DNA of 64,000 bases, taken from a virus. The notes under the pieces are model-generated. The model did no database searches and was not told the DNA's origin. It worked only from the letters and a program-made list of their open reading frames with translations. Numbering within the stretch: the stretch's first letter is position 1; each line of letters opens with the position of its first letter. The translations under genes were made by a program, and so were the position numbers. Location of the stretch: positions 28,056 to 92,055 of the IMG/VR virus record IMGVR_UViG_3300036766_002289; one strand, given 5' to 3'. Below are positions 9,376 through 41,898 of this stretch, one piece after another.

Positions 9376-9391
9376 TAGCTTAGTTGTACCA
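9376..9391 (+). promoter_or_regulatory. conserved motif TAGCTTAGTTGTACCA (copy 2)
   Basis: Exact 16-mer between two tRNA genes. Confidence 0.4.
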
Positions 9392-9401
9392 AGAACGTTT
9401 T

Positions 9402-9475
9402 CTGGCTGTGGGCTAATGGTAAGCCTCCTGCGTTGGAAGCAGGACATCATCTCAGTTCGACTCTGAGTAGCCAGA
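9402..9475 (+). tRNA. tRNA-Pro(TGG), paralogue of 9206-9279
   Basis: Acceptor CTGGCTG/TAGCCAG, same D-arm, anticodon loop GTTGGAA, 7-nt variable region ACATCAT. Confidence 0.5.
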
Positions 9476-9484
9476 CTGATTTAT

Positions 9485-9559
9485 TGCGGTGGTTTCAGTG
9501 CTGGTACTGATCTCTGCCTTTGAAGCAGATGTACGCTGGTTCAATTCCAGCCGCCGCAG
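9485..9559 (+). tRNA. tRNA-Gln(TTG), second diverged copy
   Basis: D-arm TCAG-TGCTGGTA-CTGA, anticodon arm TCTGC-CTTTGAA-GCAGA, T-arm GCTGG-TTCAATT-CCAGC. Confidence 0.5.
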
Positions 9560-9563
9560 CTAG

Positions 9564-9634
9564 TAAGTGTCGTAGTGTATCGGACAGCACACTCCCGTCC
9601 TGGGAGTAGAACCGTTCAATTCGGTAGCACTTAC
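9564..9634 (+). tRNA. atypical tRNA-like gene (possible Gly-TCC; irregular D/anticodon arms)
   Basis: Acceptor TAAGTGT/GCACTTA and T-loop TTCAATT are clear; the anticodon arm is ambiguous. Confidence 0.3.
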
Positions 9635-9642
9635 TTCCTATC

Positions 9643-9711
9643 GGGGGCAGTCTATGGGTAGCCGTTGGCCTTTGCAAGGCTGACTATGGGGATCGTAACC
9701 CCATGCCTCCA
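9643..9711 (+). tRNA. atypical tRNA-like gene (anticodon loop TTTGCAA, Ala-TGC?; non-canonical T-loop ATCGTAA); copy 1 of an exact duplicate
   Basis: Acceptor GGGGGCA/TGCCTCC, T-arm TGGGG-ATCGTAA-CCCCA; 72 nt identical to 33982-34053. Confidence 0.4.
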
Positions 9712-9717
9712 CTGTAT

Positions 9718-9788
9718 CGGCCATTGTTGAAATGGTATCATGCTTCTTTTACACGGAAGAATCGGGGGTCCGATTCCCTCATGGCCGA
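9718..9788 (+). tRNA. tRNA-Val(TAC)
   Basis: Acceptor CGGCCAT/ATGGCCG, anticodon loop TTTACAC, T-loop TCCGATT. Confidence 0.55.
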
Positions 9789-9795
9789 CTGTTAG

Positions 9796-9868
9796 CGACC
9801 TATGTTGTAGTGGCTCTGCAAGACTGTCTGATAAGCAGTAAGTCCAGGTTCGATTCCTGGTGGGTCGA
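9796..9868 (+). tRNA. tRNA-Ile(GAT)
   Basis: Acceptor CGACCTA/TGGGTCG, anticodon arm ACTGT-CTGATAA-GCAGT, T-arm CCAGG-TTCGATT-CCTGG. Confidence 0.55.
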
Positions 9869-9879
9869 TTGTTATTTAT

Positions 9880-9951
9880 GCGGGTATGACCGATTGGTTA
9901 GGTGCTAATCTTCCAAATTAGTTGAAGTGAGTTCGATTCTCACTACCCGTA
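9880..9951 (+). tRNA. tRNA-Gly(TCC)
   Basis: Acceptor GCGGGTA/TACCCGT, anticodon arm CTAAT-CTTCCAA-ATTAG, T-arm GTGAG-TTCGATT-CTCAC. Confidence 0.6.
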
Positions 9952-9957
9952 CTGTAA

Positions 9958-9992
9958 ATTTTCTTTTAATCTTATGGAAAGATTAAAAGAAA
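9958..9992 (+). terminator. perfect 15-bp hairpin (ttttcttttaatctt-atgga-aagattaaaagaaaa)
   Basis: Exact inverted repeat directly after the tRNA block and before the HNH gene; could be a terminator or an RNA-processing hairpin. Confidence 0.4.
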
Positions 9993-10008
9993 ATGACTAT
10001 ATCATGGT

Positions 10009-10449
10009 ATGAAAACAAAAACATGTAATAATTGTCATTCAGAAAAACCATTATCAGAGTTTAATAGTAAAAAAAATAGTAAAGATGGACTTCAGCCGTG
10101 GTGTAGGGAATGTAATAAACAAAGATCACGACAGTATTATGCAGATAACAGAGAATCCCATAAAAAAACTATTTTAAAAAGAAAGCATGAAAATTACAGG
10201 AAGATAAGAGATAGGATTTTAGAATTTAAAAAGAGTAATCCTTGTCTTGTTTGTGGGGAAAAAGAGCCGATTTGTTTAGATTTTCATCATGTGGAAAAGA
10301 AAAAAGTAAGAATTGCTGCGATTGCTTCAACGAATTGCAGTTTAGATACGGTGGAAAAAGAAATTAAAAAGTGTGTAATTCTTTGCTCTAATTGTCATCG
10401 TAAATTACATGCTGGAATAATTGCCCTCGAAGCATTAATGGTGATGTAG
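10009..10449 (+). CDS. HNH endonuclease (Zn-ribbon N-domain plus CLDFHH..CSNCHRKLH)
   Basis: Motifs visible in the translation; its 3' end overlaps the 5' half of tRNA-Lys at 10423-10494. Confidence 0.7.
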   Translation: MKTKTCNNCHSEKPLSEFNSKKNSKDGLQPWCRECNKQRSRQYYADNRESHKKTILKRKHENYRKIRDRILEFKKSNPCLVCGEKEPICLDFHHVEKKKVRIAAIASTNCSLDTVEKEIKKCVILCSNCHRKLHAGIIALEALMVM

Positions 10450-10494
10450 CGGTCTTTTAAACCGCACAACAGAGTTCGATTCTCTGCGGGGGTA
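10423..10494 (+). tRNA. tRNA-Lys(TTT)
   Basis: Acceptor GCCCTCG/CGGGGGT (two GU pairs), anticodon arm GCGGT-CTTTTAA-ACCGC, T-arm CAGAG-TTCGATT-CTCTG. Confidence 0.5.
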
Positions 10495-10503
10495 CTGAAT
10501 TTT

Positions 10504-10573
10504 GGGCGTGTCGTCTAACGGGAAGACGGTTGGTTTGCACCCAGCAAATGAGGGTTCAATTCCCTTCACGGTC
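10504..10573 (+). tRNA. tRNA-Ala(TGC)
   Basis: D-arm GTCT-AACGGGA-AGAC, anticodon arm GTTGG-TTTGCAC-CCAGC, T-loop TTCAATT; one acceptor mismatch. Confidence 0.5.
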
Positions 10574-10583
10574 CACTGTTTTA

Positions 10584-10658
10584 TGGCTCCGAAACCTTTA
10601 GTTGGATGAGGTCCAGTCTTTTAAACTGGTTAAGAGGGTTCGATTCCCTACGGAGCTA
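10584..10658 (+). tRNA. tRNA-Lys(TTT), second diverged copy
   Basis: Acceptor GGCTCCG/CGGAGCT, anticodon arm CCAGT-CTTTTAA-ACTGG, T-loop TTCGATT. Confidence 0.5.
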
Positions 10659-10663
10659 CTTTT

Positions 10664-10735
10664 GCCGTTCTAACATAGTGGACTATGTGCTTGTGTGAAG
10701 AACAAGAAATTTGGGTTCAATTCCCAGGAACGGCA
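10664..10735 (+). tRNA. tRNA-Phe(GAA)
   Basis: Acceptor GCCGTTC/GAACGGC, D-stem ACAT/ATGT, anticodon arm CTTGT-GTGAAGA-ACAAG. Confidence 0.55.
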
Positions 10736-10779
10736 CTTCACTACTATATTATAATTGGTTATACTTTTAAGGATTAAAC

Positions 10780-10938
10780 ATGATAAGTGCAAACGATTTG
10801 AATGAATTACGAAGGCTAGTAACGAATTCCTATGACGGTGATAAGGGCATTATTAGCAGAGTATTAAGAGGTATCACTGACTTAACAAACGAGAACGCTC
10901 GTTTAAAGGCAGAGATTCAAAAGCTTAAGGCTAAGTAA
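10780..10938 (+). CDS. small coiled-coil hypothetical protein (52 aa)
   Basis: ORF between tRNA genes; MISANDLNELRRLV...KAEIQKLKAK. Confidence 0.3.
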   Translation: MISANDLNELRRLVTNSYDGDKGIISRVLRGITDLTNENARLKAEIQKLKAK

Positions 10939-11010
10939 GCAGCTTTGGTGAAGTTGGTACTCACGTTTGTCTGAAGAACAAAAGAACTCGGTTCGATTCT
11001 GAGAGGCTGC
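10939..11010 (+). tRNA. tRNA-Phe(GAA), second diverged copy
   Basis: Acceptor GCAGCTT/AGGCTGC, D-stem GTGA/TCAC, anticodon arm TTTGT-CTGAAGA-ACAAA. Confidence 0.55.
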
Positions 11011-11127
11011 ACTAAGGAGAGCCTTACTCCAATTGAGAAAGAAATTTCTAGGGACGGTCAATCCCGATGATGAAAAAGTATTTCAACGAGGTGACTCAAG
11101 GCTGAGAGGGTGACACCTCTTATTTAT

Positions 11128-11199
11128 TCCCTTGTCTTTCAATGTGTAGGAAGACTGGCTGTTAACCAGTTAATCTAGGTTCGAGTCCTAGCGAGGGAG
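11128..11199 (+). tRNA. tRNA-Asn(GTT)
   Basis: Acceptor TCCCTTG/CGAGGGA, anticodon arm ACTGG-CTGTTAA-CCAGT, T-loop TTCGAGT. Confidence 0.55.
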
Positions 11200-11206
11200 T
11201 TAGAAT

Positions 11207-11277
11207 TGTGGAGTCGTACAACGGTAGTACGCGAAGCTGTTAACTTCGTTATGGGGGTTCGATTCCCTCCTCCACAG
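11207..11277 (+). tRNA. tRNA-Asn(GTT), second diverged copy
   Basis: Acceptor TGTGGAG/CTCCACA, D-stem GTAC/GTAC, anticodon arm CGAAG-CTGTTAA-CTTCG. Confidence 0.55.
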
Positions 11278-11284
11278 CTTTTAT

Positions 11285-11356
11285 GGTGTACGTCGTCTAA
11301 TGGTAGGACGCCAGACTGTGAATCTGATAATGGCGGTTCGATTCCGCTCGCACACC
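11285..11356 (+). tRNA. tRNA-His(GTG) with G-1
   Basis: Extra 5' G pairs with C73 as is typical for tRNA-His; anticodon loop CTGTGAA, T-arm GGCGG-TTCGATT-CCGCT. Confidence 0.6.
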
Positions 11357-11365
11357 CTTACATTA

Positions 11366-11438
11366 GCCTCGTTAGACTTCTGGGAAGTCACCACGCTTTC
11401 AACGTGGAACAAGATGGGATCGAAACCCATACGAGGTA
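11366..11438 (+). tRNA. tRNA-Glu(TTC) with non-canonical T-loop ATCGAAA
   Basis: Acceptor GCCTCGT/ACGAGGT, D-stem GACT/AGTC, anticodon arm CCACG-CTTTCAA-CGTGG, T-arm ATGGG-ATCGAAA-CCCAT. Confidence 0.5.
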
Positions 11439-11441
11439 CTT

Positions 11442-11909
11442 ATGAAAGTATGTTCTAGATGTGGTTTGGGAAAAAATATATTGTGTTTTTCCAAAAATGC
11501 TGGTAAAGTCGATGGACTTAACGTCTGGTGTAAAGAATGTTGTAAAGTTTACCGAGATGATTATTATATCCTACATAAAGATTATGAAATAGAGAGAAAA
11601 AATCTTCGCAAAGCAAGTAATAAAAAATGGTTCGAAGACTACCGATCTAAACTTTGTTGTGAGATTTGTGAGGAAAGCCATCCTGCTACACTTGATTTTC
11701 ATCACAAAAACGTAATAGAAAAAGATTTTAATGTGAGCATACTTGTCAGTGAAGGTTATGGAATTAAGAGGATTCTTGAAGAGATTGCTAAATGTAGGGT
11801 GTTATGTTCTAACTGTCATAGAAAACTTCATTGGGAAGAAAGGAGAGAGTATAATGACACATATGACTCCAGAGCAAGCGGCGGAATTTTGGAAACAAAT
11901 GGACGCTGA
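11442..11909 (+). CDS. HNH endonuclease
   Basis: CSRCG..WCKECCK Zn ribbon plus LDFHH...CSNCHRKLH; starts 4 nt after the tRNA-Glu 3' end. Confidence 0.7.
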   Translation: MKVCSRCGLGKNILCFSKNAGKVDGLNVWCKECCKVYRDDYYILHKDYEIERKNLRKASNKKWFEDYRSKLCCEICEESHPATLDFHHKNVIEKDFNVSILVSEGYGIKRILEEIAKCRVLCSNCHRKLHWEERREYNDTYDSRASGGILETNGR

Positions 11910-11995
11910 AATTTGAAAAAGAGAACGTTTTTCTTAATTCTCGCGGCTGGATTCAATGTCTGGGAACATTTGTAGATCATAACGGGAAAGAATAT

Positions 11996-12544
11996 GTGTC
12001 AGAAGCATGGGCACATCCTATTACGCTTAAAAAGTATAGTACAGGTGCTTTTGTTGTCGCAACAGAAGATTATCTTCGTGAAAAAGGTTGGAAAAGTATT
12101 CTCGAAGTTGAGCGTGCTGGGGAAAAGAAGTGGAACAAGATTTATAAGATGGGAAGGTGTCAAAGCCCTGTAACAAAAAGGATTTATTGCTATCTTGAAG
12201 CAGAATGGTATGCAATTGAACGTAATTTCGATGAAAGTGATTATCCTTTTGGAATGTCCCAACATACTATTGAACTAAACAAACTTATCAAGGATTTTAA
12301 AAAGGATGAATATTTCATCTGGTTTCATCGGAGTTCAGAAGGACAGCATGTAGGAGTATACGGAGAAACTTATATTACTGAATTTTGGACTCAAGATGAA
12401 ATCAAAACGTATAAAATAGACGAGGCAGCAAAAATTTCAAAGGTAATGATTGAAGCATTAGTATCTCCTGATAGGGCCAGATGCGCTTTGAATTGGTCTC
12501 AAGATGATGTTGAAAAGGCAATAGAACGTGCTAGTATCGTATAG
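11996..12544 (+). CDS. hypothetical protein
   Basis: ORF 182 aa. Confidence 0.5.
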   Translation: MSEAWAHPITLKKYSTGAFVVATEDYLREKGWKSILEVERAGEKKWNKIYKMGRCQSPVTKRIYCYLEAEWYAIERNFDESDYPFGMSQHTIELNKLIKDFKKDEYFIWFHRSSEGQHVGVYGETYITEFWTQDEIKTYKIDEAAKISKVMIEALVSPDRARCALNWSQDDVEKAIERASIV

Positions 12545-13745: not shown

Positions 13746-13817
13746 GTGGGTGAAGCCAAACGGTGCGGCATCTGTGTGTGAATCAGAATATAATGGGTTC
13801 AACTCCCATCATCCACC
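13746..13817 (+). tRNA. tRNA-like gene, possible His(GTG) without G-1
   Basis: Acceptor GTGGGTG/CATCCAC, anticodon loop GTGTGAA, T-arm ATGGG-TTCAACT-CCCAT. Confidence 0.4.
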
Positions 13818-14341: not shown

Positions 14342-14433
14342 TGCGGTGTCATCTAATGGCAAGATACGGGTCTCAAGGGTCAAACAGCCCATAAATGAAG
14401 CCTGAAATGTAGGTTCGACTCCTACCGCCGTAA
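14342..14433 (+). tRNA. atypical long tRNA-like gene (92 nt; possible type-II or intron-containing; a CAA loop is present)
   Basis: Acceptor TGCGGTG/CGCCGTA, D-arm ATCT-AATGGCA-AGAT, T-arm GTAGG-TTCGACT-CCTAC; the anticodon arm could not be folded cleanly. Confidence 0.3.
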
Positions 14434-18488: not shown

Positions 18489-18539
18489 GCCCTCATAGTA
18501 CAATGGCAGTATAACTGAGTCCGATTCTCAGTGAGGGCT
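18489..18539 (+). ncRNA. truncated tRNA-like element (51 nt) with acceptor, D- and T-arms but no anticodon arm
   Basis: GCCCTCA-TA-GTAC-AATGGCA-GTAT-AA-CTGAG-TCCGATT-CTCAG-TGAGGGC-T. Confidence 0.4.
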
Positions 18540-18546
18540 TTGGATA

Positions 18547-31387: not shown

Positions 31388-31599
31388 GTTGGAACTATAG
31401 AATAATGAAGCATGTGGACGATGGCGAAACATGGTATGGAATACACGAAGTCATCTATGACGAAGGAAAACTTAGTTATACAGAGACTGCATTTGCAATT
31501 GGGGATAGCCCCGAAGAATTGAAGTCTGTGTGCGAGATGATGTGTGAAGCTTTCAAAAAACCTATTTTGGAGTATGAAAATGAGCGAGAATCTACTTAA
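31384..31599 (+). CDS. hypothetical protein
   Basis: ORF 71 aa. Confidence 0.35.
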   Translation: MSWNYRIMKHVDDGETWYGIHEVIYDEGKLSYTETAFAIGDSPEELKSVCEMMCEAFKKPILEYENEREST

Positions 31600-32464
31600 A
31601 GCTTGTGGTCTGATCCTTGGTGTTGGTTTAGTTTGTGGCGTACTTTCGTTCTTTGTCTGGTTTCTCAATAGCTCCAATCCAGACGTGCCTGCTGGATATG
31701 TTGGCTATCAGACTCAAGGAGCAGTTTTTGGTCAAGGCAAGTTTTATGGAACATTAAAAGGCCCAGCTTCCCCAGGTCGAACATGGATGGTTAAGAGTTT
31801 CCCTGTTAGTATTACTCCTTACACTTACGCAGAAGAATTCTCTGGAGAGAGTGAAGTTCTTTCCAAGGACAATCTGAAGATTAATTACAGAATTCATATA
31901 GTATGGCGTATCAAGGAAGATAGTGTTAAGGATGCTGTGGAAAAATTCTCTACTATTGATACAACTGGTAAGATACAAGACCCAGAAAAAGTCGTAAAAG
32001 ACATTTATGGCAATTACCTTAAAGAACCACTTAGAACTTTTAGTCGAGATGAAGTGCAAAAGTTGAATTGGGTCGAAATCAAAGAAAAACAGGTCATTAT
32101 AGGGGATAACATCAAGAATAATATGCTTAAGTTAACAAAGGACACACCATTCGATATCATTAGTGTGGTTGTCGGCAATATCCAATATCCTAAAGTAGTA
32201 TCTGATGCAGTAGCAGATAATCTTGCTACAACACAGCATTTAGAGAAGGAAAGAAAAGATGCCGAACGAAGGGTTGTGCAGGCGGAAGGTATTGCTAAGT
32301 CTATGGAAATTATCAACCAAAGACTGACTTCACAATACTTGCAGCACGAGGCTATTGAAGCACAGAAGTCTATGGTTAATAGTCCTAATCATACGGTTAT
32401 CTACATTCCTGTAGGTAATATGGGTATTCCTTTGGTGGGGACTATTGATGCGGGTAAAAAATGA
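31578..32464 (+). CDS. SPFH/band-7 (HflK/C-like) domain membrane protein
   Basis: N-terminal TM segment; SPFH-like core ending ..QYLQHEAIEAQ..HTVIYIP. Confidence 0.55.
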
Positions 32465-32621
32465 GTGAAGTAGAGATTTTACAAAAGGAAAATGAGCAAC
32501 TAAGAGCTACTATTAAGGAATTAAGAGAGCAATTAGAAGCTTATAAAAGACAAACAAGGCGGCAATATTATGCCGACCAAGACTACGTGTCTTACCATGA
32601 TGAAGATAGGCGTGACTAATT

Positions 32622-33164
32622 ATGGCTGAAACAAGTAAGGCAGAACAACGTAGGGGCAGAGAAGGTTGGTTTGCACAGTATGCTCCGTTCGACAAGTCTG
32701 GGATTGATCTAGGTTGCGGTGATGATTGCTTAAATCAATCTTTTCGTAGGTTTGACTGTGTTTTTGGCGATGGCGATGCTCAGTTTATGCATGGAACTTA
32801 TGACGACCAATTTCATACTGTATATGCCAGCCACCTTCTAGAACACCTTAATAACCCAATAGAAGCCATATATAACTGGTATAGAATTTGCCGAAGTCCT
32901 GGCCACGTAATCATTTGTGTCCCACACAGGGATTTGTATGAGAAAAAGCTAGAATTGCCTAGCAGGTGGAATGCAGAGCATAAGACCTTTTGGTTGCCAG
33001 AAAATGGGGAATCGCCTGTAACAATGGGGTTAAAGGAAGTGATCTTGCAGGCTATTCCACATGCTGATATAGTGTCATTAAGGATTTTGAATGAAGGTTG
33101 GGCGTCTAATGGTGATGCTCATTCTAGTGGCGAATATAGTATAGAGGCTATAATAAGAAAGTGA
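32622..33164 (+). CDS. SAM-dependent methyltransferase-like protein
   Basis: DLGCGDD motif-I-like segment; VFGDGD...HTVYASHLLEHL resembles class I MTase post-I/II motifs. Confidence 0.5.
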   Translation: MAETSKAEQRRGREGWFAQYAPFDKSGIDLGCGDDCLNQSFRRFDCVFGDGDAQFMHGTYDDQFHTVYASHLLEHLNNPIEAIYNWYRICRSPGHVIICVPHRDLYEKKLELPSRWNAEHKTFWLPENGESPVTMGLKEVILQAIPHADIVSLRILNEGWASNGDAHSSGEYSIEAIIRK

Positions 33165-33185
33165 CTAACTATAATAGATAATATT

Positions 33186-33258
33186 GGCCCGTGAGTGTGA
33201 CGGATTAACACGAAAGTCTTCGAAACTTTTATAATAGGTTCAATTCCTATACGGGCTA
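33186..33258 (+). tRNA. tRNA-Arg(TCG)
   Basis: Acceptor GGCCCGT/ACGGGCT, D-stem GTGT/ACAC, anticodon arm AAAGT-CTTCGAA-ACTTT, T-arm ATAGG-TTCAATT-CCTAT. Confidence 0.55.
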
Positions 33259-33260
33259 CT

Positions 33261-33494
33261 ATGACGTTAGTGATAAGTTACTCTATTAATTACGAGAACG
33301 GTGAAGGTGATTTACTAGAAGCGATAGCAGATATAAATTTTCCCAATGCCGTAGAGTCACCAGACTTTCCAGAAAGTGCGTGTGATGAGACAGCAAGAAG
33401 ATATTTAGTCAATCGTATTTTAACTGAAGGTGGCAGGGTCATTAAGATAAATAAAGCTGGATATAGATGGAAAGAATATGAGGATGGAGACTAA
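33261..33494 (+). CDS. hypothetical protein
   Basis: ORF 77 aa starting 3 nt after the tRNA. Confidence 0.35.
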   Translation: MTLVISYSINYENGEGDLLEAIADINFPNAVESPDFPESACDETARRYLVNRILTEGGRVIKINKAGYRWKEYEDGD

Positions 33495-33802
33495 TGGATA
33501 TTCCAGACGAGTGGATGTGGTGTCACGACGTATTATATGGTTTTGGCTACCGTAAAGGTGATTCGGATAAGGTTATAAGGTTAGAAGATGCTGCTCAATT
33601 TCTTGGATGGACTGTTGAACATAGAAGTTTTCGTGATGCTCTAAGCATAGAACGGCAGCTTGAGCTTGACGAAATCTATGACAAATTGCAACCTTTTCTC
33701 GCAGAAAGATTAGAGAAACGACGTAAATATGTTGAAGAACATCCATCCAAATATGATAGGATAACTGTGGCTCAAGTAAGCAGAGAGTATCCTAAATTAT
33801 GA
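33494..33802 (+). CDS. hypothetical protein
   Basis: ORF 102 aa. Confidence 0.4.
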   Translation: MDIPDEWMWCHDVLYGFGYRKGDSDKVIRLEDAAQFLGWTVEHRSFRDALSIERQLELDEIYDKLQPFLAERLEKRRKYVEEHPSKYDRITVAQVSREYPKL

Positions 33803-33982
33803 AGAAGTTTAAATCTATTAACAAATGGATTTTTGAGAATTGTGCGTGTGACTGCTGGATTTGCCAGAAGACTAATAATCTATTGCTTAAAATAGCAGTT
33901 TATGCGGTTTGGTTTACTTTAGTACTTTGTATATTGTGTAGTTTGTTTGTTTTGATTGTGAAAGTTGGGGAATTAATATAAC

Positions 33983-34051
33983 GGGGGCAGTCTATGGGTA
34001 GCCGTTGGCCTTTGCAAGGCTGACTATGGGGATCGTAACCCCATGCCTCCA
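33983..34051 (+). tRNA. atypical tRNA-like gene, exact copy 2 of 9643-9711
   Basis: 72 nt (33982-34053) identical to 9642-9713. Confidence 0.4.
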
Positions 34052-34055
34052 CTAT

Positions 34056-34403
34056 ATGCAGAAATATAAAGAAGACAGTCCTTTTGTAAAAGGGTGTAAG
34101 CCAGACGGATTTGCCACAAGCTGGGAGCCTAAGAAGTTCAAATACAAATGGCTAGAATTATGGCAAAAAAGTACTGATGGCTTTGTGGGGCTGGCAAAAA
34201 TCAGTAAGAAAATGCCTTTGTATTGGAGAAGTCCAAAAAATTTGATTTATGGAGTCATAGTATTGCAGGCTGGTTTTCATAACGACCAAGAGTGGGTCAG
34301 AGTATTAAGGAAAACTGCTGATAGCGTCATAATTCCAAATCCTGAATATAATAAGAATGGCAACCCAACAAGAATAATCATCGACCTTAATCCAAAAAAC
34401 TAA
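34056..34403 (+). CDS. hypothetical protein
   Basis: ATG 34056 just after the tRNA-like copy; the listed ORF start at 34005 lies inside the tRNA. Confidence 0.4.
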   Translation: MQKYKEDSPFVKGCKPDGFATSWEPKKFKYKWLELWQKSTDGFVGLAKISKKMPLYWRSPKNLIYGVIVLQAGFHNDQEWVRVLRKTADSVIIPNPEYNKNGNPTRIIIDLNPKN

Positions 34404-34417
34404 TAAAAAGGTTTAAA

Positions 34418-34627
34418 ATGTTTTCACACAATCCAAAATGGTTTAGTGACAAGATGCGTGAGACTAAGGATTTACCCCATATTGAGGTGACAAAGAAAGA
34501 ATTCATCAAATTGTTTGTTAAGAATGGTGGCGAAAAGAAGGACGCAAGCTTCCAAGCTAATATATGCGAAGGATTAGGCAGTAGTGTTCAAATAGGCAAT
34601 CAGATGGTAAGTATTAAGGGGGCTTAA
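34418..34627 (+). CDS. hypothetical protein
   Basis: ORF 69 aa. Confidence 0.35.
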   Translation: MFSHNPKWFSDKMRETKDLPHIEVTKKEFIKLFVKNGGEKKDASFQANICEGLGSSVQIGNQMVSIKGA

Positions 34628-34682
34628 CTCATCGGCTAAATTTTTTAATTAAGCTTTTGAGTCATCCATACTATATTATTGT

Positions 34683-35165
34683 ATGGATATAATTCAACTG
34701 GAAAACCTTGTAAATCAAGGATTAAGTCAATATAAAATTGCAGATATTTTTGGTTGCTCGCAAAGTAAGATAAAATATTGGTGCATTAAACTTGGTATAA
34801 AGGCAAAACAAAAAATTAGGAAATGTGCTTTGTGCGGGGAAACGGATGCCATTAAAATTTATAGGCATAAAGATGGTAGGTTTAGGTATCGTTGCAAGAA
34901 GTGTGATAATAAAAAAACTATTGAGCGGTTTAGGGATTACAAAAAGAAGGCCGTAGAATATAAAGGTAGTAAGTGTTTGATTTGCGGTTATTCTAAGTGT
35001 TTAGCGTCTTTAGAATTTCATCATAGGAGTCCAGATGAAAAAGACCCGCGTTGGACTAAAATGCGAAATTGGCCCCTTTATAAAATAAAAACTGAATTGG
35101 ATAAATGTGATTTAGTCTGTAGTAATTGTCATAGGGAGATTCATTATGGAAGAGGTGAAATATGA
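34683..35165 (+). CDS. HNH endonuclease with N-terminal HTH
   Basis: CALCG..CKKCDNK Zn ribbon plus LEFHH...CSNCHREIH. Confidence 0.7.
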   Translation: MDIIQLENLVNQGLSQYKIADIFGCSQSKIKYWCIKLGIKAKQKIRKCALCGETDAIKIYRHKDGRFRYRCKKCDNKKTIERFRDYKKKAVEYKGSKCLICGYSKCLASLEFHHRSPDEKDPRWTKMRNWPLYKIKTELDKCDLVCSNCHREIHYGRGEI

Positions 35166-35427
35166 ATTTTTTTGAAGTTTGTTTTAACAGCATGTCTGGC
35201 TTAAGAATCTTGATTGTAAAGAGCGTTATGCCTTGTCTCAGTTAATGATTTGTAGGACAATTACTGGAGAACAAGTTCGTGAAAAACATCCCGAAGTAGA
35301 TTTTACTAGAATACACAATGTAACTCCTTTTTTAAGTCTTATCCCACCACCAGTGGATTTATGGTCGTTTAATGAAGATTGGTATGATGTTTTGGTCAAG
35401 GTTATGCTTTTAGAAGGTATTCGTTAA

Positions 35428-36207
35428 TTGGAGATAATCATGAATAAAGAACGTAGGGGCTTTATGGCTTGGCTAGCTGGGTTTTTTGGTCTTGGCGCGG
35501 TTACGCAATTAGGTGCGCAACCAGTAAGTATGACCAACAATCATCCAGTATATGGGAAACAAGGTGAATGGATTCTTTACAAACAAGATGTGCCAAATAA
35601 AAAAGGCATTATTGTCTTTACAATGAATGTTGGTAATCTTCCCCCCTTAAAAGCAGAAGCCTACATTGAAAGGATCAAAGATCAGTTCCGTAAAAGTGGC
35701 AACCCACAAGATTGGCAAGACTGGCAGCATATTTTTATGCCAGTCCGCCATCAAGAAACTAAGGTTGAGATTTTTTCATTTGAAAAGTGTGATTACATAG
35801 AGCCTATGAAAGTTCTGGGGGCTGTCGTTCCTTTTGTAGCCCCAAGTAAAGAATCTGTAAAGGATTATGTCCTTTTGATGTTAGGTGCGCCAGTTGTTAA
35901 GGTTGAATTAGATGATACTCAACTTGAATTTGCATATAACAGTACCAAAGAAGCTTTTGCACATGTGTCTGAGGCTAAGGGTAGCGTTTTGATGAAGTTT
36001 GAGGGTAGTCGCCCTTGGGCTGGTTTGGGCGATGAGATTTTCAAGCAAATGGTGTATGCTCGGGCCATGATTATGTTGGGTCATATTCGTGGTAAGTATA
36101 TCTCACTTCCAGGTTCAGGCGGTAATATTGTGATGGATGGTGAAACACTTAGAGAAGAAGGTAATACATTGCTAGCTGAGTGTATGGAGGAACTAAGTAA
36201 TTTATGA
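35428..36207 (+). CDS. hypothetical protein
   Basis: ORF 259 aa; ggag RBS. Confidence 0.5.
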   Translation: MEIIMNKERRGFMAWLAGFFGLGAVTQLGAQPVSMTNNHPVYGKQGEWILYKQDVPNKKGIIVFTMNVGNLPPLKAEAYIERIKDQFRKSGNPQDWQDWQHIFMPVRHQETKVEIFSFEKCDYIEPMKVLGAVVPFVAPSKESVKDYVLLMLGAPVVKVELDDTQLEFAYNSTKEAFAHVSEAKGSVLMKFEGSRPWAGLGDEIFKQMVYARAMIMLGHIRGKYISLPGSGGNIVMDGETLREEGNTLLAECMEELSNL

Positions 36208-36391
36208 CAGGTGATGAATTAGACCGATTTGAAAATTTATTACTATTCTGTTGTTCTCATGATAAGTTCAGAAGGGCACCAGTTGGGCAGGCTGTAGGGA
36301 TGTTGCCTGAATCTGTAAAAGAATTCCTTAGAACAATTAAGTCTGATGATTTAAAGAATATTAGGCCAGATTATATTAAGAAGAATTGGCT

Positions 36392-36586
36392 TTAAGCCTT
36401 AATATCGGATTTTCTAACAGTCAGGACATATCTTTGGACAAAGATATTGTCAAGTTGAAATAAAAGATCAATTAGGTCGAAGTCAACGCCTACAATAGTG
36501 CCATACATGCCGTAGAATCGGTGATCTGTGCCAATATATTTTACCCTTTTGCCTATTCTGTAAGGATTTAACCAATAGTTTTTCAC
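36392..36586 (-). CDS. small hypothetical protein, MKNYWL family, GTG start
   Basis: Minus-strand ORF starting with the conserved tgaaaaactattggtt module. Confidence 0.35.
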   Translation of the reverse strand: MKNYWLNPYRIGKRVKYIGTDHRFYGMYGTIVGVDFDLIDLLFQLDNIFVQRYVLTVRKSDIKA

Positions 36587-36602
36587 ATAGATATTTACTC
36601 AG

Positions 36603-36986
36603 ATGCTCTACTATCTGTTTTTCCTACATTTGATTGGCGATTTTGTTTTTCAAATCCGCTGGATGGCTAATAACAAAAGCCATAATCGGTGGGCACTTAT
36701 GCTGCATTGTCTGGTATATTCAGCAACTTTAGGCGGTGGTTTGTATTGGCTTAGACCTGAGTATGTTACACTGCCAGAGTTTGGTTTATTTATATTTTTT
36801 AATCTTTGTGCCCATTATTTAACTGATTCTATCACAAGCAAAATTACTTCTTATTTTTATAGTAAAGAGCAATTTTATTTATTTTTTGTTACCGTAGGAT
36901 TGGACCAATTCATACATACTGCGACGTTATTATTGAGTTGTCAGCTTATAATTGAGAAAATTGGTGGGCATAAATGGCTAACATAA
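36603..36986 (+). CDS. membrane protein
   Basis: ORF 127 aa, several TM segments. Confidence 0.4.
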   Translation: MLYYLFFLHLIGDFVFQIRWMANNKSHNRWALMLHCLVYSATLGGGLYWLRPEYVTLPEFGLFIFFNLCAHYLTDSITSKITSYFYSKEQFYLFFVTVGLDQFIHTATLLLSCQLIIEKIGGHKWLT

Positions 36987-37432
36987 GAAAATATAAGAAG
37001 TTAAGGACAGAAGGCTATACAATACTTGGTCTTTATAAGATTGGTAGAGAAAATGGCCTGGCTCCAGATGAAATTGTGATAATGTTGGATAAAGTTATGC
37101 CAGAGGAAGGGCATGATGATGTTGTTAAGTTTATGCGAAAAATGGAGTTTGGTGAAGAATATTGTATGACTTGTCAGAAATTTTTCATAGATAAGCCAGG
37201 AGAATGGTGTGATTTTCATTGCAAGGATTGCCAGAAAAGAATTGACAAAATGTGGGAAAAGGTCTATGATGCATGTGAGGAATCTGGTGAAGAATTGTCC
37301 AGTGACGAGCAGGTTAGGTTTAGTATTTTAATTGGAATGGTTACGGCGATGGATAGCTTAGTTGTACAGGAGGCAGATGGGACACAAGAGAACCAAGGGA
37401 GTGAGACAAAAACTTCGTTCAAAACAGAGTGA
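36974..37432 (+). CDS. hypothetical Cys-rich protein
   Basis: ORF 152 aa; CMTCQ...CKDCQ. Confidence 0.45.
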   Translation: MANIRKYKKLRTEGYTILGLYKIGRENGLAPDEIVIMLDKVMPEEGHDDVVKFMRKMEFGEEYCMTCQKFFIDKPGEWCDFHCKDCQKRIDKMWEKVYDACEESGEELSSDEQVRFSILIGMVTAMDSLVVQEADGTQENQGSETKTSFKTE

Positions 37433-37827
37433 GAAAACAAAACAGTATGCGGTAGTGCCAGCTATTATTGTTAATAGTGAAATTCGTGGGGATGTGGAAA
37501 TTTTAAGCAAACGTGGTGACGGTAGGTTTGAATGCAAAGTTGGGGAATCGAGTATCCAATACTTAAGTAAAAAAGAGATAGATAAACTTGTCGTCAGAAG
37601 CTAATTTCGCATGGCGCGGGGCTGGTCTGCAAAATCAGTGCTAATAGGTTCGAATCCTACTGACGATTCTAGAGGAAGTGATATGAAAGTTTTTGTATTA
37701 GACAATCATGATTCAAAGTTCATAATGCGTAGGGAAGAAGCCTTGGCCGCGATTGGATATGAATTGGATATACTTGAAGTTGGGGATACTTTTACTATTG
37801 AATGTAAGGTAATGACTGAAGAAGAAG

Positions 37828-38562
37828 TTGACGCCTTACCAGAGATGTAAAATGTCAGCAGTAGCAACTTGGATTAATCATGATGCCTTACGCAATGACA
37901 TAGAAAGCCATACTGCGTTTGCATTAATTTCGGCATTGGATATAATTAATTGGGAATGCCCAATTACTGTTATTCAACAAGACGCGCTGATTTATGCTAT
38001 AAAAGAACTAATGCCGACGCATCATTGGTCGCGTATCAGCGAATATCCGTGGGCATTAGTAAATGCAAGGATTACAGGCAAACAATCCGTTTTAGATGTT
38101 GGTGGGGCAGATTCGCCTTTTCAATATGCTTTAGTTATGCGGGCAGGGGCTGTTACCAACATTGACTTAGATGAAGATGGTAAGTTTGCCCTTGCCAAGA
38201 AATCAATCCTTGGCAAGGCTTTATCTGATAAGATTGTTTGGCTAAAGCAGGATGTGCTTACTTATAAGAAAACTTTTGATCGGGTGTTGTGTATATCGGT
38301 CCTTGAACATATGCGTGACCCTATTGGTGCCGTCAAGCACCTTTATTCGCTTGTGAATCCTGGTGGTCGGTTATTGTTTTCGTTTGATGTTGCAGAAAAA
38401 CCATGTAAGGATTTTCCTATTGGGATAGTTGAGGCTAAGAAAATATTGAATATATTCTCTCTTAAAATGCCATCTATTTCGGAAGCTTATGTTCAGCCGT
38501 TCAAGATCGCTAAGAATTTAAGAGTTATGTGTGTTTATGCAGATAAAGGATTTGGAAAATAG
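37828..38562 (+). CDS. SAM-dependent methyltransferase-like protein
   Basis: VLDVGGADSPF (motif I-like), NIDLDE, ..SVLEHMRDP...LVNPGGRLLF. Confidence 0.5.
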   Translation: MTPYQRCKMSAVATWINHDALRNDIESHTAFALISALDIINWECPITVIQQDALIYAIKELMPTHHWSRISEYPWALVNARITGKQSVLDVGGADSPFQYALVMRAGAVTNIDLDEDGKFALAKKSILGKALSDKIVWLKQDVLTYKKTFDRVLCISVLEHMRDPIGAVKHLYSLVNPGGRLLFSFDVAEKPCKDFPIGIVEAKKILNIFSLKMPSISEAYVQPFKIAKNLRVMCVYADKGFGK

Positions 38563-38575
38563 ATATATATTATAT

Positions 38576-38647
38576 GGTCCCGTAGTCTAATGGAGAGGCA
38601 CTTGTTTCCTAAACAAGGTTATGCAGGTTCGATTCCTGTCGGGACTA
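38576..38647 (+). tRNA. tRNA-Arg(CCT)
   Basis: Acceptor GGTCCCG/CGGGACT, D-stem GTCT/AGGC, anticodon arm CTTGT-TTCCTAA-ACAAG, T-arm GCAGG-TTCGATT-CCTGT. Confidence 0.55.
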
Positions 38648-38653
38648 CTTTAG

Positions 38654-38727
38654 GGGGTCACAATGGGCGGTAAAATCATAAACCGAAAGGCTTGATTTTA
38701 TTAAAGGTTCAATTCCTTTTGACTCCA
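38654..38727 (+). tRNA. atypical tRNA-like gene (anticodon arm not foldable; contains CCGAAAGG)
   Basis: Acceptor GGGGTCA/TGACTCC, D-arm ATGG-GCGGTAAAA-TCAT, T-arm AAAGG-TTCAATT-CCTTT. Confidence 0.3.
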
Positions 38728-38946
38728 CTATGACGTTAGATAATATAGTAAAATCTTATGTGACAGCAGGATTGACAACAAAGGTATACGATGCTCCGAA
38801 AGATGCTGTTACCTTTGACAAAATGATTGTTATTTTCAGTACACCAGCCTGTAAATCCATTAAAATGGTAATGCTGCATAGCAGTAAAACTCAAGGCATC
38901 GTAGGTAAGTTTTAGACTTTACGGAAGCAGAAAGTCATAGTATGAT

Positions 38947-39297
38947 ATGGTTGTTGATTTTGAGATTACGTTGAACAGATTTGGGTTTTATCGGCTCACA
39001 AACAAAGTTCAGATAGCGTTTGTTAGGATATCTTGGTGGGATATTCCAAATAAACACTCTGTTAGTTTTGAAATAAACTGGAAAAACATGACTAAGCAAG
39101 AGATGGAATTATCGCAAGCATTTACTGAGTTGGAATATAAAGTAAAAGCTTTAAAAATGGCTCATGATATTAGTGAAAGTTTAGGTTCGCAGAAGCATAG
39201 TTATTGGATTGCTTATATTGAGCCAGTGGAGAAACGTCTGGCTGATTTTAAGACTAAATTTTACAAAATTATGCTAGAGATGGAAGAACCTGAATAA
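38947..39297 (+). CDS. hypothetical protein
   Basis: ORF 116 aa. Confidence 0.4.
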   Translation: MVVDFEITLNRFGFYRLTNKVQIAFVRISWWDIPNKHSVSFEINWKNMTKQEMELSQAFTELEYKVKALKMAHDISESLGSQKHSYWIAYIEPVEKRLADFKTKFYKIMLEMEEPE

Positions 39298-39384
39298 ATA
39301 TTAGTATGGAACATGGCCTACCCAGGCTTACAGGGGAACGCTGCTCTGCGGGATAAGCAGATTTGAAACACCCGCATTGTTATT

Positions 39385-39456: not shown

Positions 39457-39461
39457 CTCAT

Positions 39462-41896: not shown

Positions 41897-41898
41897 TT

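What the first reader, a model, noticed from the sequence alone, without database searches (positions are those of the whole stretch)
9642..9713. Exact 72-nt duplicate of an atypical tRNA-like gene 24 kb apart
Positions 9642-9713 and 33982-34053 are identical over 72 nt, and the identity starts and stops essentially at the tRNA boundaries. Everything else between and around them is unique. Such a direct repeat could be an att-like pair bracketing a 24-kb insertion, a retro-copied tRNA, or a recombination scar. The element itself is unusual, with a very short D-loop and a T-loop ATCGTAA.
Basis: seen in the sequence. Interest (0 to 1): 0.55.

Follow-up and report, generated by a model that had tools for sequence, protein, structure and literature searches.

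The report
Duplicated odd-shaped alanine tRNA gene
The two identical 72-base stretches are two copies of an unusually compact alanine tRNA gene in a 590-kb phage genome, sitting at two old tRNA-Ala sites that now carry the same allele, and they are not the ends of an inserted element.

Summary
Positions 9642-9713 and 33982-34053 are identical, and this is the longest exact repeat outside one repetitive gene.

The element (G1-A73 = 9643-9711 and 33983-34051) is a 69-nt tRNA-Ala(UGC). It has the G3:U70 pair, A73 and a normal UUUGCAA anticodon loop. Its core is remodelled: a tiny D arm, a 7-bp anticodon stem and a 2-nt variable loop. Its T-loop is AUCGUAA (A54/U58). ARAGORN and the Rfam tRNA model both miss it.

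Related phage contigs carry a tRNA-Ala gene at both sites, with conserved and mutually unrelated flanks:
- Array site: a 72%-identical compact version with five compensatory pair changes.
- Second site: either the same 69-nt allele or a canonical-core tRNA-Ala with the same T-loop.

A third compact version lies in an otherwise unrelated phage contig. No integrase lies between the copies. The att/insertion reading is therefore rejected.

The same 69-nt allele is also found exactly in two other phage lineages, and its first 30 nt end a further contig. Neighbouring tRNAs in these lineages are only 72-86% identical. This points to recombinational homogenisation and allele spread, in a region rich in HNH endonuclease genes.

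Function as a chargeable, decoding tRNA is inferred. A role in resisting tRNA-cutting nucleases is speculative.

The parts
9643..9711 (+). Copy 1 of the compact tRNA-Ala(UGC) gene ('ALAx'), G1 to A73. It sits in the dense tRNA array, 8 nt after tRNA-Gly(tcc) and 6 nt before tRNA-Val(tac). The exact repeat spans 9642-9713.
   Evidence: Sequence. The cloverleaf has no non-standard pair. Covariance model R1 scores 101 bits. The orthologous slot holds ALAy in L048 and the first 30 nt of ALAx in L050.
33983..34051 (+). Copy 2 of ALAx, between protein genes. The exact repeat spans 33982-34053.
   Evidence: It is at the position of the canonical-core tRNA-Ala of L003 (both flanks syntenic) and L040 (same gene order), and of the identical ALAx of L038.
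9565..9634 (+). Atypical tRNA-Gly(tcc) just upstream of copy 1. Together with the spacer 'cttcctatc' it anchors the array site to its orthologues.
   Evidence: ARAGORN; absent from the Rfam list. L048 9012-9136 and L050 4614-5097 align across it into the Ala gene.
9718..9789 (+). tRNA-Val(tac), directly downstream of copy 1. It is the only intact Val(tac) gene in the window.
   Evidence: It is 68% identical to the Val(tac) of L003, and visibly diverged from those of L003, L038 and L040 in the alignment.
10009..10449 (+). HNH endonuclease gene in the tRNA array, about 300 nt downstream of copy 1.
   Evidence: PHROG phrog_2255, E = 1.5e-33. No Pfam match at E <= 0.01.
10504..10574 (+). A third UGC-anticodon tRNA, with a normal D arm and normal T-loop. 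Its acceptor stem is imperfect.
   Evidence: ARAGORN; Rfam 49.6 bits; sequence. G3:U70 forms only if one G on the 3' strand is bulged (my reading of the sequence).
33186..33259 (+). tRNA-Arg(tcg), the upstream anchor of the second Ala site.
   Evidence: The order Arg(tcg)-Ala is shared by L003, L038 and L040. It is only 72% identical to the L038 orthologue.
34618..34639 (+). 5' remnant (acceptor strand and D arm) of a tRNA-Val(tac) gene that is intact in L038.
   Evidence: Alignment A4.
34683..35165 (+). HNH endonuclease gene occupying the place of the 3' two-thirds of tRNA-Val(tac), about 630 nt downstream of copy 2.
   Evidence: PHROG phrog_2255, E = 3.7e-30. Window/L038 alignments.
35428..36207 (+). 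gp13-like gene, the downstream anchor of the second Ala site. It was used to fetch orthologous loci.
   Evidence: (P0001 is 100% identical and lies on a 590,099-nt contig).

Best explanation
The repeat is two copies of one gene for a structurally compact alanine tRNA (anticodon UGC) in a huge phage. The source contig is 590 kb.

**What the RNA looks like (shown).** It keeps what alanyl-tRNA synthetase needs: the G3:U70 wobble pair and discriminator A73. It keeps a standard anticodon loop, U33-UGC-A37. Its core is remodelled:
- a 3-bp D stem with the 4-nt loop UGGG;
- a 7-bp anticodon stem;
- a 2-nt variable loop;
- a T-loop AUCGUAA, with A54 and U58 in place of T54 and A58.

**How it most likely works (inferred).**
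- It is transcribed with its neighbours on the + strand.
- It is cut out by RNase P and 3' processing.
- It receives CCA after transcription, since none is encoded.
- It is charged with alanine by the host enzyme.
- It reads GCA, and by wobble GCU and GCG. GCA and GCU are the phage's dominant alanine codons.

**Why there are two identical copies.** Both positions are ancestral tRNA-Ala sites (shown). Relatives carry a different compact version at the array site and a canonical-core version at the second site. In this phage one allele occupies both sites. The same allele occurs exactly in other phage lineages. The identity therefore reflects recombinational replacement (gene conversion) confined to the only homologous stretch, the tRNA itself. 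It does not reflect an insertion. The mechanism of that replacement is inferred.

**Why the shape differs.** The remodelled shape may be favoured because it escapes tRNA-cutting nucleases. This last point is speculative.
For: **Alanine identity and fold**
- The sequence shows the identity elements and the anticodon loop.
- The cloverleaf has no non-standard pair and an energy of -26.0 kcal/mol; the MFE fold (-31.5) is a near variant.

**Comparative support for the fold**
- ALAx, ALAy (L048) and ALAz (L054) are all 69 nt and align without gaps.
- 92.4% of cells pair, and 9 pairs change on both sides. None of 500 shuffles reached that number of pairs.
- The covarying pairs are 5 of 7 in the extended anticodon stem, 2 in the acceptor stem and 2 in the T stem.
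- Slid-register controls give 26-53% pairing.
- ALAx against ALAy alone shows five compensatory pairs.

**Copy 1 sits in a regular slot of a tRNA array**.

**Orthology of both sites**
- Array site: L048 has Gly(tcc), the same spacer, then ALAy. L050 has Gly(tcc), the spacer, then the first 30 nt of ALAx.
- Second site: L003 is collinear with window 32512-42607 and carries a canonical-core tRNA-Ala there. L038 is collinear with 31498-38314 and carries ALAx at 69/69. L040 has Arg(tcg), a canonical-core Ala, Val(tac), then the gp13-like gene.

**The exact identity is an outlier**
- Every other tRNA pair in the window is at most 79% identical, and same-anticodon pairs are 48-72%.
- Between the window and L038, Arg(tcg) is 72% identical while ALAx is 69/69.
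- Between the window and L050, Gly(tcc) is 86% identical while the held part of ALAx is 30/30.
- L007 is 85% identical to L003 downstream of the tRNA, yet carries ALAx where L003 has the canonical-core gene.

**Context**
- Alanine codons in 18 ORFs: GCA 119, GCT 117, GCC 54, GCG 34.
- The tRNA regions hold five HNH endonuclease genes, one of which replaced most of a tRNA-Val gene 570 nt from copy 2.
Against: - There are no expression, processing or charging data.
- ARAGORN does not call ALAx. The Rfam tRNA model gives no hit even at E <= 10. ALAy scores only 22.8 bits against a gathering score of 29.
- The D-stem register of ALAx and ALAy is not kept in ALAz, which has its own 4-bp register.
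- G8 replaces the nearly universal U8, and A54/U58 is not known to me from any characterised tRNA.
- Only three distinct compact sequences were found, so covariation rests on few events.
- Conversion of the whole gene needs crossovers in only 5-7 nt of shared sequence at one end. The mechanism is not shown and no partial conversion tract was seen.
- One Lys(ttt) gene is also 73/73 identical between the window and L048. Exact sharing of tRNA alleles is therefore not unique to this gene.
- That L048 and L040 come from one genome is assumed from their shared sample.
Confidence: 0.7

Rival explanations
1. The two copies are att-like direct repeats left by integration of a 24-kb mobile element, with a tRNA gene as target.
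For: An exact direct repeat of tRNA size with unrelated flanks. Integrative elements often duplicate part of a tRNA gene (established knowledge).
Against: - Relatives have a tRNA-Ala gene at each site with conserved flanks on both sides.
- In L048 and L040 the two genes differ, so there is no repeat pair.
- No integrase, recombinase or transposase was found among 26 ORFs in 10.0-34.0 kb: all 23 of at least 130 aa, plus three shorter ones next to copy 2. Smaller ORFs elsewhere were not scanned.
- The segment has the same strand, the same GC content and the same mix of tRNA and HNH genes as its surroundings.
- Integration usually duplicates only the 3' part of a tRNA gene. Here the repeat is the whole gene.
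Confidence: 0.03
2. The element is a decayed, non-functional tRNA pseudogene that happened to be copied recently.
For: General tRNA finders miss it. The D arm is degenerate and the T-loop non-canonical. The window holds other broken-looking tRNA-like pieces.
Against: - It is 69/69 identical at four loci in three phage lineages, and its first 30 nt end the contig of a fourth sample. Adjacent tRNAs in these lineages are 72-86% identical and flanks 67-84%.
- Compensatory changes keep the acceptor, anticodon and T stems intact across ALAx, ALAy and ALAz.
- All identity elements and the anticodon-loop signature are intact.
- The GG of the D loop, which normally contacts U55-C56, is retained (sequence).
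Confidence: 0.08
3. It is a functional tRNA-shaped RNA that is alanylated or bound by tRNA-binding proteins but does not decode. Possible roles are a decoy for a tRNA-targeting nuclease, an alanine donor outside the ribosome, or a regulatory or priming RNA.
For: - AlaRS needs only the acceptor stem, so charging does not depend on the core (established knowledge).
- The remodelled core and A54/U58 could reduce use by EF-Tu or the ribosome (speculation).
- A second RNA with G3:U70 and A73 but no anticodon-like loop lies at 38654-38729 and is conserved in L003.
Against: - The anticodon loop is a perfect U33-UGC-A37 loop and is invariant in all three compact versions while the stem beneath it covaries.
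- The anticodon matches the phage's main alanine codons.
- At the second site the gene replaces a canonical-core tRNA-Ala in relatives. This suggests the two are functionally equivalent.
Confidence: 0.15
4. The duplicate is an assembly artefact, such as a misjoin or a collapsed or duplicated segment.
For: Short repeats are typical sites of misassembly. The Logan contigs break at both copies.
Against: - The Logan breaks are as expected for a true two-context repeat.
- L038 spans left flank, ALAx and right flank of copy 2 in one contig.
- L048 and L050 confirm the left flank of copy 1, and L048 also shows broadly similar array content downstream.
- L002 continues from the repeat into Val(tac), Ile and Gly exactly as in the window.
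Confidence: 0.02

Closest known systems
Canonical bacterial and phage tRNA-Ala(UGC)
   Same: G3:U70, A73, the anticodon loop UUUGCAA, a 7-bp acceptor stem, a 5-bp T stem, and the GG in the D loop.
   Different: - The D stem has 3 bp with a 4-nt loop, instead of 4 bp with 8-11 nt.
- The anticodon stem has 7 bp instead of 5.
- The variable loop has 2 nt instead of 4-5.
- G8 replaces U8.
- The T-loop has A54/U58 instead of T54/A58.
- ARAGORN and Rfam RF00005 do not recognise it.
Phage tRNA-Ala(UGC) genes with a canonical core and an A54/U58 T-loop (11 loci from ten IMG/VR and Logan contigs; 9 distinct sequences)
   Same: The same T arm: L004 matches all 17 nt. G3:U70 and A73 are also shared. In L003 and L040 the gene sits at the same genomic site as copy 2.
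   Different: They keep the normal D arm, a 5-bp anticodon stem and a 5-nt variable loop, and ARAGORN calls them. A pattern combining this T arm with the UGC loop found no tRNA in representative genomes of 185,579 cellular species.
Compact-core tRNAs: animal mitochondrial tRNA-Ser(UCN) and tRNA-Pyl (from my own knowledge)
   Same: A lengthened anticodon stem combined with a small D loop and a short variable loop. This is the kind of compensation thought to preserve the L-shape.
   Different: - Those have 6-bp anticodon stems and one nucleotide between the acceptor and D stems. tRNA-Pyl also lacks G18G19 and T54-Psi55-C56.
- This RNA has 7 bp, two linker nucleotides, and keeps GG and U55-C56.
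- The amino-acid identity differs, and this one is phage-borne.
The resemblance is of architecture only. No homology is implied.
Phage tRNAs that escape tRNA-targeting defences (PMC10264068, PMC11464382). A bacterial Schlafen nuclease is reported to cut the anticodon arm of tRNAs including phage T5 tRNA-Ala(UGC) (PMC13056530).
   Same: A phage-encoded isoacceptor that differs structurally from the usual form.
   Different: The published cases change the anticodon loop. Here the loop is standard and the changes lie in the core, the anticodon stem and the T-loop. No nuclease or defence system is linked to this gene, so the parallel is a hypothesis.
Free-standing homing endonucleases in phage tRNA clusters, such as T4 SegB (from my own knowledge)
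   Same: HNH endonuclease genes are interspersed with tRNA genes. One has replaced most of a tRNA gene near copy 2. Such enzymes drive preferential inheritance of neighbouring tRNA alleles.
   Different: No cleavage site is known. The shared tract is only the 69-nt tRNA, without the endonuclease gene. L007 and L038 carry the allele without that HNH gene.
tRNA-like domain of tmRNA
   Same: G3:U70 alanine identity and a reduced D region.
   Different: This RNA has a true anticodon arm, is 69 nt long, and has no mRNA-like part. ARAGORN finds no tmRNA in the window.

Membership tests
tRNA-Ala (substrate of alanyl-tRNA synthetase) | G3:U70 wobble pair in the acceptor stem | tested here: met
   GGGGGCA pairs with UGCCUCC, and the third pair is G-U. 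This holds in all three compact versions.
tRNA-Ala (substrate of alanyl-tRNA synthetase) | Discriminator A73 | tested here: met
   An A follows the acceptor stem in ALAx, ALAy and ALAz.
tRNA-Ala (substrate of alanyl-tRNA synthetase) | Seven-nucleotide anticodon loop with U33, an alanine anticodon and a purine at 37 | tested here: met
   The loop is UUUGCAA, invariant in the three versions while the stem beneath it covaries.
tRNA-Ala (substrate of alanyl-tRNA synthetase) | Aminoacylation with alanine | not testable with these tools
   This needs an in vitro charging assay.
Canonical (type I) tRNA cloverleaf | 4-bp D stem with an 8-11 nt loop, U8, a 5-bp anticodon stem and a 4-5 nt variable loop | tested here: not met
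   The element has a 3-bp D stem with a 4-nt loop, G8, a 7-bp anticodon stem and a 2-nt variable loop.
Canonical (type I) tRNA cloverleaf | T-loop with T54 and A58 (UUCRANY) | tested here: not met
   The T-loop is AUCGUAA.
Canonical (type I) tRNA cloverleaf | Recognition by general tRNA models | tested here: not met
   There is no ARAGORN call. There is no RF00005 match at the gathering score, nor at E <= 10 in a 241-nt search.
Canonical (type I) tRNA cloverleaf | Stems maintained by compensatory substitutions among homologues | tested here: met
   Nine pairs change on both sides among three sequences, a number no shuffle of 500 reached. The D stem is not supported.
Integrative element bounded by att repeats in a tRNA gene | Integrase or recombinase inside the bounded segment | tested here: not met
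   Pfam (26 ORFs) and PHROGs (7 of them) gave no integrase or recombinase for ORFs in 10.0-34.0 kb: all 23 of at least 130 aa, plus three shorter ones next to copy 2. They found only HNH and Vsr-like endonucleases, a ligase, an ion channel, a Band 7 protein and a methyltransferase. Smaller ORFs elsewhere were not scanned.
Integrative element bounded by att repeats in a tRNA gene | Relatives with an empty site, that is a single copy joining the outer flanks | tested here: not met
   Relatives instead keep each site with its own flanks and its own Ala gene. The middle of the segment (12.5-31.5 kb) could not be compared.
Integrative element bounded by att repeats in a tRNA gene | Composition or strand break at the boundaries | tested here: not met
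   GC content is 0.35-0.44 throughout, GC skew is positive throughout, and the large ORFs are almost all on the + strand.
Compact-core tRNAs (mitochondrial tRNA-Ser(UCN) and tRNA-Pyl type) | Anticodon stem longer than 5 bp together with a small D loop and a short variable loop | tested here: met
   The 7-bp stem has five covarying pairs, including the sixth pair. The D loop is 4-5 nt and the variable loop 2 nt.
Compact-core tRNAs (mitochondrial tRNA-Ser(UCN) and tRNA-Pyl type) | Common descent with those tRNAs | not tested
   No test was made. At the second site the gene replaces a normal phage tRNA-Ala, which argues for an independent origin.
Homing-endonuclease-driven inheritance of tRNA alleles (T4 SegB type) | Endonuclease gene next to the allele, and a cleavage site in the alternative allele | tested here: inconclusive
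   HNH genes lie 300 and 630 nt downstream of the two copies. L038 and L007 carry the allele without that HNH gene. Cleavage cannot be tested here.
tmRNA | tRNA-like domain joined to a tag-encoding reading frame | tested here: not met
   ARAGORN finds no tmRNA. The element is a closed 69-nt cloverleaf with an anticodon arm.

The most novel reading that the evidence does not exclude
A phage-restricted structural class of alanine tRNA exists, with a compact core and an A54/U58 T-loop. One allele of it is sweeping through a clade of huge phages and overwriting other tRNA-Ala genes at two sites. It spreads because it stays usable by AlaRS and the ribosome while being invisible to a tRNA-cleaving or tRNA-modifying activity that disables normal tRNA-Ala. 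That activity could be a host defence or a phage host-shutoff function. The HNH endonucleases in the tRNA islands may help the allele spread.
Probability: 0.2. Interest if true: 0.7.

Novelty: new variant of a known kind. Interest (0 to 1): 0.45.

Why it matters
Phage tRNA genes are well known, and a duplicated one is ordinary. Two aspects go beyond that.

**Shape.** If this tRNA is functional, a tRNA usable by a bacterial translation system can have the kind of compensated, shortened core known mainly from mitochondria and tRNA-Pyl, together with a swapped 54/58 T-loop pair. With the pattern used, that T-loop was seen only in phage contigs. Standard tRNA finders miss such genes, so the tRNA sets of huge phages are probably under-counted. 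This window alone holds at least four further tRNA-like genes that ARAGORN, Rfam or both skip.

**Evolution.** One 69-nt allele is identical at two sites and in several phage lineages whose neighbouring tRNAs are only 72-86% identical. This is a clear example of concerted evolution and horizontal spread of a single small RNA gene. It gives a concrete candidate for testing the idea that phages carry tRNAs to withstand tRNA-targeting immunity.

**Practical point.** The two 72-bp direct repeats could mediate deletion of the 24 kb between them, and they fragment k-mer assemblies.

Tried and rejected
**Searches that found nothing or only noise**
- GenBank phages (INPHARED): no megablast match to window 8000-32000, and no blastn match to 9600-9760.
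- IMG/VR scans for a 23-mer of the element, for its D arm plus anticodon loop, and for the neighbouring atypical Gly gene all found nothing.
- The search for related loci with two single window proteins found no relatives in IMG/VR, which cost two scans.
- The scan of cellular genomes for the A54/U58 T arm with a UGC loop gave 25 hits, about the number I estimated for chance. None is a tRNA.
- More distant gp13-like loci (L042-L046) have no tRNA-Ala nearby.
- The covariance model R1 found no further compact members in any held locus.
- Promoter and terminator scans around copy 2 were no better than shuffles.
- Literature searches for A54/U58 T-loops, and for phage tRNAs with extended anticodon stems, found nothing relevant in the held library.

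**Ideas considered and dropped**
- ALAx as a recent chimera of the array-type core and the second-site T arm. This was weakened when ALAz (L054) showed the same combination in an otherwise unrelated phage contig. The direction of change stays open.
- An unbroken L038 contig as proof of a single copy in that phage. This is not safe, because L050, from a sister sample, breaks inside the element.
- A minus-strand gene. The reverse complement gives no tRNA-like arrangement (my reading of the sequence).

Full report
**1. The observation**

Positions 9642-9713 and 33982-34053 are identical over 72 nt. With one mismatch near each end the similarity runs to 79 nt (family D19). The flanks beyond that are unrelated. 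It is the longest exact repeat in the window outside the internally repetitive ORF 55530-62978.

An independent Logan assembly of run SRR11714510 carries the same phage. Two of its contigs start at window 9684 and 34024, exactly 30 nt before the end of the repeat. I attribute this to a k=31 graph branching where two real copies diverge. The k value is from my own knowledge of Logan.

**2. The setting**

The window is part of a 590,099-nt contig. Its large ORFs are almost all on the + strand, GC content is 35-45%, and GC skew is positive throughout.

ARAGORN finds 39 tRNA genes and Rfam finds 36. Neither calls the repeated element. The Rfam tRNA model gives no hit even at E <= 10 in a 241-nt search around copy 1.

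Five ORFs among the tRNA genes match PHROG HNH endonuclease families, with E = 1e-26 to 1e-39. There is no match in GenBank phages.

**3. What the element is**

Read from G1 (9643 or 33983) to A73 (9711 or 34051), it is a 69-nt cloverleaf with no non-standard pair.

| Part | Sequence or feature |
|---|---|
| Acceptor stem | GGGGGCA/UGCCUCC, with a G-U third pair (G3:U70) |
| Discriminator | A73 |
| Linker | G8 U9 |
| D arm | CUA-UGGG-UAG (3-bp stem, 4-nt loop) |
| Anticodon stem | 7 bp, GUUGGCC/GGCUGAC |
| Anticodon loop | UUUGCAA (U33, anticodon UGC, A37) |
| Variable loop | 2 nt |
| T arm | UGGGG-AUCGUAA-CCCCA |

G3:U70 with A73 is the established identity set of alanyl-tRNA synthetase, which ignores the anticodon and the core. 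The element is therefore an alanine tRNA with a remodelled core and an A54/U58 T-loop.

Copy 1 occupies a regular slot in the array. It lies 8 nt after a Gly(tcc) gene and 6 nt before Val(tac). The two bases 'CT' that both copies share after A73 follow the discriminator in nearly every tRNA of the window. The shared unit is therefore exactly the tRNA.

**4. Relatives at the second site (copy 2)**

- **L003**, from a 373-kb IMG/VR contig, is collinear with window 32512-42607 at about 70-80% nt identity. At the position of copy 2 it has a tRNA-Ala(UGC) with a normal D arm, a 5-bp anticodon stem and a 5-nt variable loop, but the same ATCGTAA T-loop.
- **L040** (Logan) has the same kind of gene in the order Arg(tcg), Ala, Val(tac), gp13-like gene.
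- **L038** (Logan) is 82-84% identical to window 31498-38314 and carries the compact element at 69/69 identity at this site. The neighbouring Arg(tcg) is only 72% identical.
- **L007** (JGI) is 85% identical to L003 downstream of the tRNA. It nevertheless carries the compact element at 69/69 where L003 has the canonical-core gene.

**5. Relatives at the array site (copy 1)**

- **L048** (Logan, same sample as L040) is collinear with window 15-12543. After the orthologous Gly(tcc) and the same spacer 'cttcctatc' it has a 69-nt tRNA-Ala(tgc), here called ALAy. ALAy has the same D arm, a 7-bp anticodon stem and a 2-nt variable loop, but a normal T-loop, TTCGATT. ARAGORN calls it. Rfam gives it 22.8 bits, below the gathering score.
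- ALAy differs from the window's element at 19 of 69 positions. Five pairs change on both sides, one G-U becomes G-C, and one pair is lost.
- **L050** (Logan) has Gly(tcc), the spacer, and the first 30 nt of the window's element. Its contig then ends.

**6. A wider family**

- A last IMG/VR scan found **ALAz** in L054, a locus with no other similarity to the window. ALAz is also 69 nt. It has G3:U70, A73, the loop UUUGCAA, an extended anticodon stem of entirely different sequence, and the T-loop AUCGUUA.
- Across the three compact versions, 92.4% of cells pair and nine pairs change on both sides. None of 500 shuffles reached that number of pairs. Five of the seven anticodon-stem pairs covary, and slid registers give 26-53% pairing. 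The D-stem register is not conserved.
- Canonical-core tRNA-Ala genes with the A54/U58 T-loop occur at 11 loci from ten phage contigs: nine IMG/VR contigs of 23-373 kb and the Logan contigs L040/L041. They give 9 distinct sequences.
- The same pattern found no tRNA in representative genomes of 185,579 cellular species.
- A54/U58-type loops also occur in a Thr tRNA and in a CAT-anticodon tRNA of other phage contigs.

**7. Why the att/insertion reading fails**

- Both sites hold tRNA-Ala genes in relatives, each with its own conserved flanks.
- In L048 and L040 the two genes differ, so no repeat pair exists there.
- No integrase or recombinase was found among 26 ORFs in 10.0-34.0 kb: all 23 of at least 130 aa, plus three shorter ones next to copy 2.
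- Composition, strand and gene content do not change at either boundary.
- The interior of the segment (12.5-31.5 kb) could not be compared with relatives.

**8. Why the copies are identical**

- Every other tRNA pair in the window is at most 79% identical, and same-anticodon pairs are 48-72%.
- The allele is exact at four loci in three lineages, and over the first 30 nt in L050. Adjacent tRNAs in these lineages are 72-86% identical and flanking DNA 67-84%.
- Ordinary purifying selection on tRNAs in these phages allows much change, including compensatory change, as the ALAx/ALAy comparison shows.
- The best reading is therefore recent recombinational replacement. Within the genome this is gene conversion between the two paralogous sites. 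Between phages it is allele exchange. The tract is confined to the tRNA because nothing else is homologous.
- This step is inferred. The crossovers would need very short homology at one end, and no intermediate tract was seen.
- Exact sharing is not unique to this gene. Lys(ttt) 10423-10495 is 73/73 identical to a gene of L048.
- The islands are rich in HNH endonuclease genes. One (34683-35165) has replaced the 3' two-thirds of a Val(tac) gene that is intact in L038, leaving a 5' remnant at 34618-34639. These enzymes could supply the double-strand breaks that start such conversions, as T4 SegB does in my own knowledge. This is not shown here.

**9. Function**

- Decoding of alanine codons is the most economical reading.
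- The anticodon loop is canonical and invariant, while the stem below it covaries.
- At the second site the gene stands in for a normal-core tRNA-Ala in relatives.
- GCA and GCT make up 73% of alanine codons in 18 ORFs, and GCA alone is 150 of 250 in the giant ORF.
- A lengthened anticodon stem combined with a reduced D region and a short variable loop recalls mitochondrial tRNA-Ser(UCN) and tRNA-Pyl, which are functional (my own knowledge).
- Why this shape is favoured is unknown. Published work shows that phage tRNAs can escape or neutralise tRNA-targeting defences (PMC10264068, PMC11464382). One bacterial Schlafen nuclease cuts the anticodon arm of tRNAs including phage T5 tRNA-Ala(UGC) (PMC13056530). 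I offer escape from such an activity as a hypothesis at about 0.2-0.3.

**10. Verdict**

The finding is real, and the 'atypical tRNA-like gene' description is right. The mobile-element interpretation is wrong. The element is a new structural variant of a known kind of gene. It has an unusual conservation pattern that is worth a targeted follow-up but is not categorically new.

Noticed in passing
window 38654-38729; L003 7788-7862: A 75-nt tRNA-like RNA lies directly after tRNA-Arg(cct). Its acceptor stem is GGGGUCA/UGACUCC with G3:U70 and A73. It has no D stem, only a single-stranded CAAUGGGC. It has a 10-bp central stem with a 14-nt loop and no recognisable anticodon, and a normal T arm. L003 conserves it, with compensatory changes in the acceptor and T stems. 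The shape recalls the tRNA-like domain of tmRNA.
   Followed up: partly
window 18490-18540: A 51-nt mini tRNA-like sequence has an acceptor stem, a D arm and a T arm but no anticodon arm. No tool calls it.
   Followed up: partly
window 37591-37668: A tRNA-Cys(GCA)-like gene with an odd, long D region is missed by both ARAGORN and Rfam. L003 has an 85-nt tRNA-Cys at the syntenic place.
   Followed up: partly
window 9565-9634: The Gly(tcc) gene just upstream of copy 1 folds with a 6-bp anticodon stem and a 5-nt loop. It is absent from the Rfam list but conserved in L048 (76%) and L050 (86%). It is another non-canonical tRNA.
   Followed up: partly
window 34618-35165; L038 3025-3099: An HNH endonuclease gene has replaced the 3' two-thirds of a tRNA-Val(tac) gene. 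The 5' 22 nt of that tRNA remain.
   Followed up: yes
window 10423-10495; L048 9461-9533: tRNA-Lys(ttt) is 73/73 identical between the window and a relative whose flanks are about 71-82% identical. This is a second exactly shared tRNA allele.
   Followed up: no
window 10504-10574: This is a third UGC-anticodon tRNA with a normal core and T-loop. Its acceptor stem gives G3:U70 only if one G on the 3' strand is bulged. It has no counterpart in the L048 array.
   Followed up: no
window, all tRNA genes: Nearly all tRNA genes are followed by 'CT' after the discriminator, and none encodes CCA. This looks like a common 3'-processing signal.
   Followed up: partly
L006 about 6721-6794; L033 about 10115 (minus strand); L036 about 8637: T-loops of the A54/U58 type (ATCGTAC, ATCGTTA) also occur in a tRNA-Thr(cgt) and in a CAT-anticodon tRNA of other phage contigs. 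The variant is therefore not restricted to tRNA-Ala.
   Followed up: no
L003 7705-7785 against window 38576-38648: The tRNA-Arg(cct) of L003 carries an extra 8 nt (CTGTGGCG) right after the anticodon loop, relative to the window's otherwise near-identical gene.
   Followed up: no
window 55530-62978: A 2482-aa ORF is built of diverged repeat units of about 1.1-1.3 kb, rich in SGxxxSG motifs. It is probably a fibre or surface protein.
   Followed up: no
window 3297-4238 and 4246-5193: Two adjacent paralogous ORFs are glycine-rich and share similar N- and C-terminal parts.
   Followed up: no
window 13746-13817 and 14342-14433: Rfam calls two tRNAs here that ARAGORN does not. The second is 92 nt long.
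   Followed up: no
window 33800-33977: A stretch of about 177 nt holds a 60-aa hydrophobic ORF immediately upstream of copy 2. It is absent from the close relative L038.
   Followed up: no
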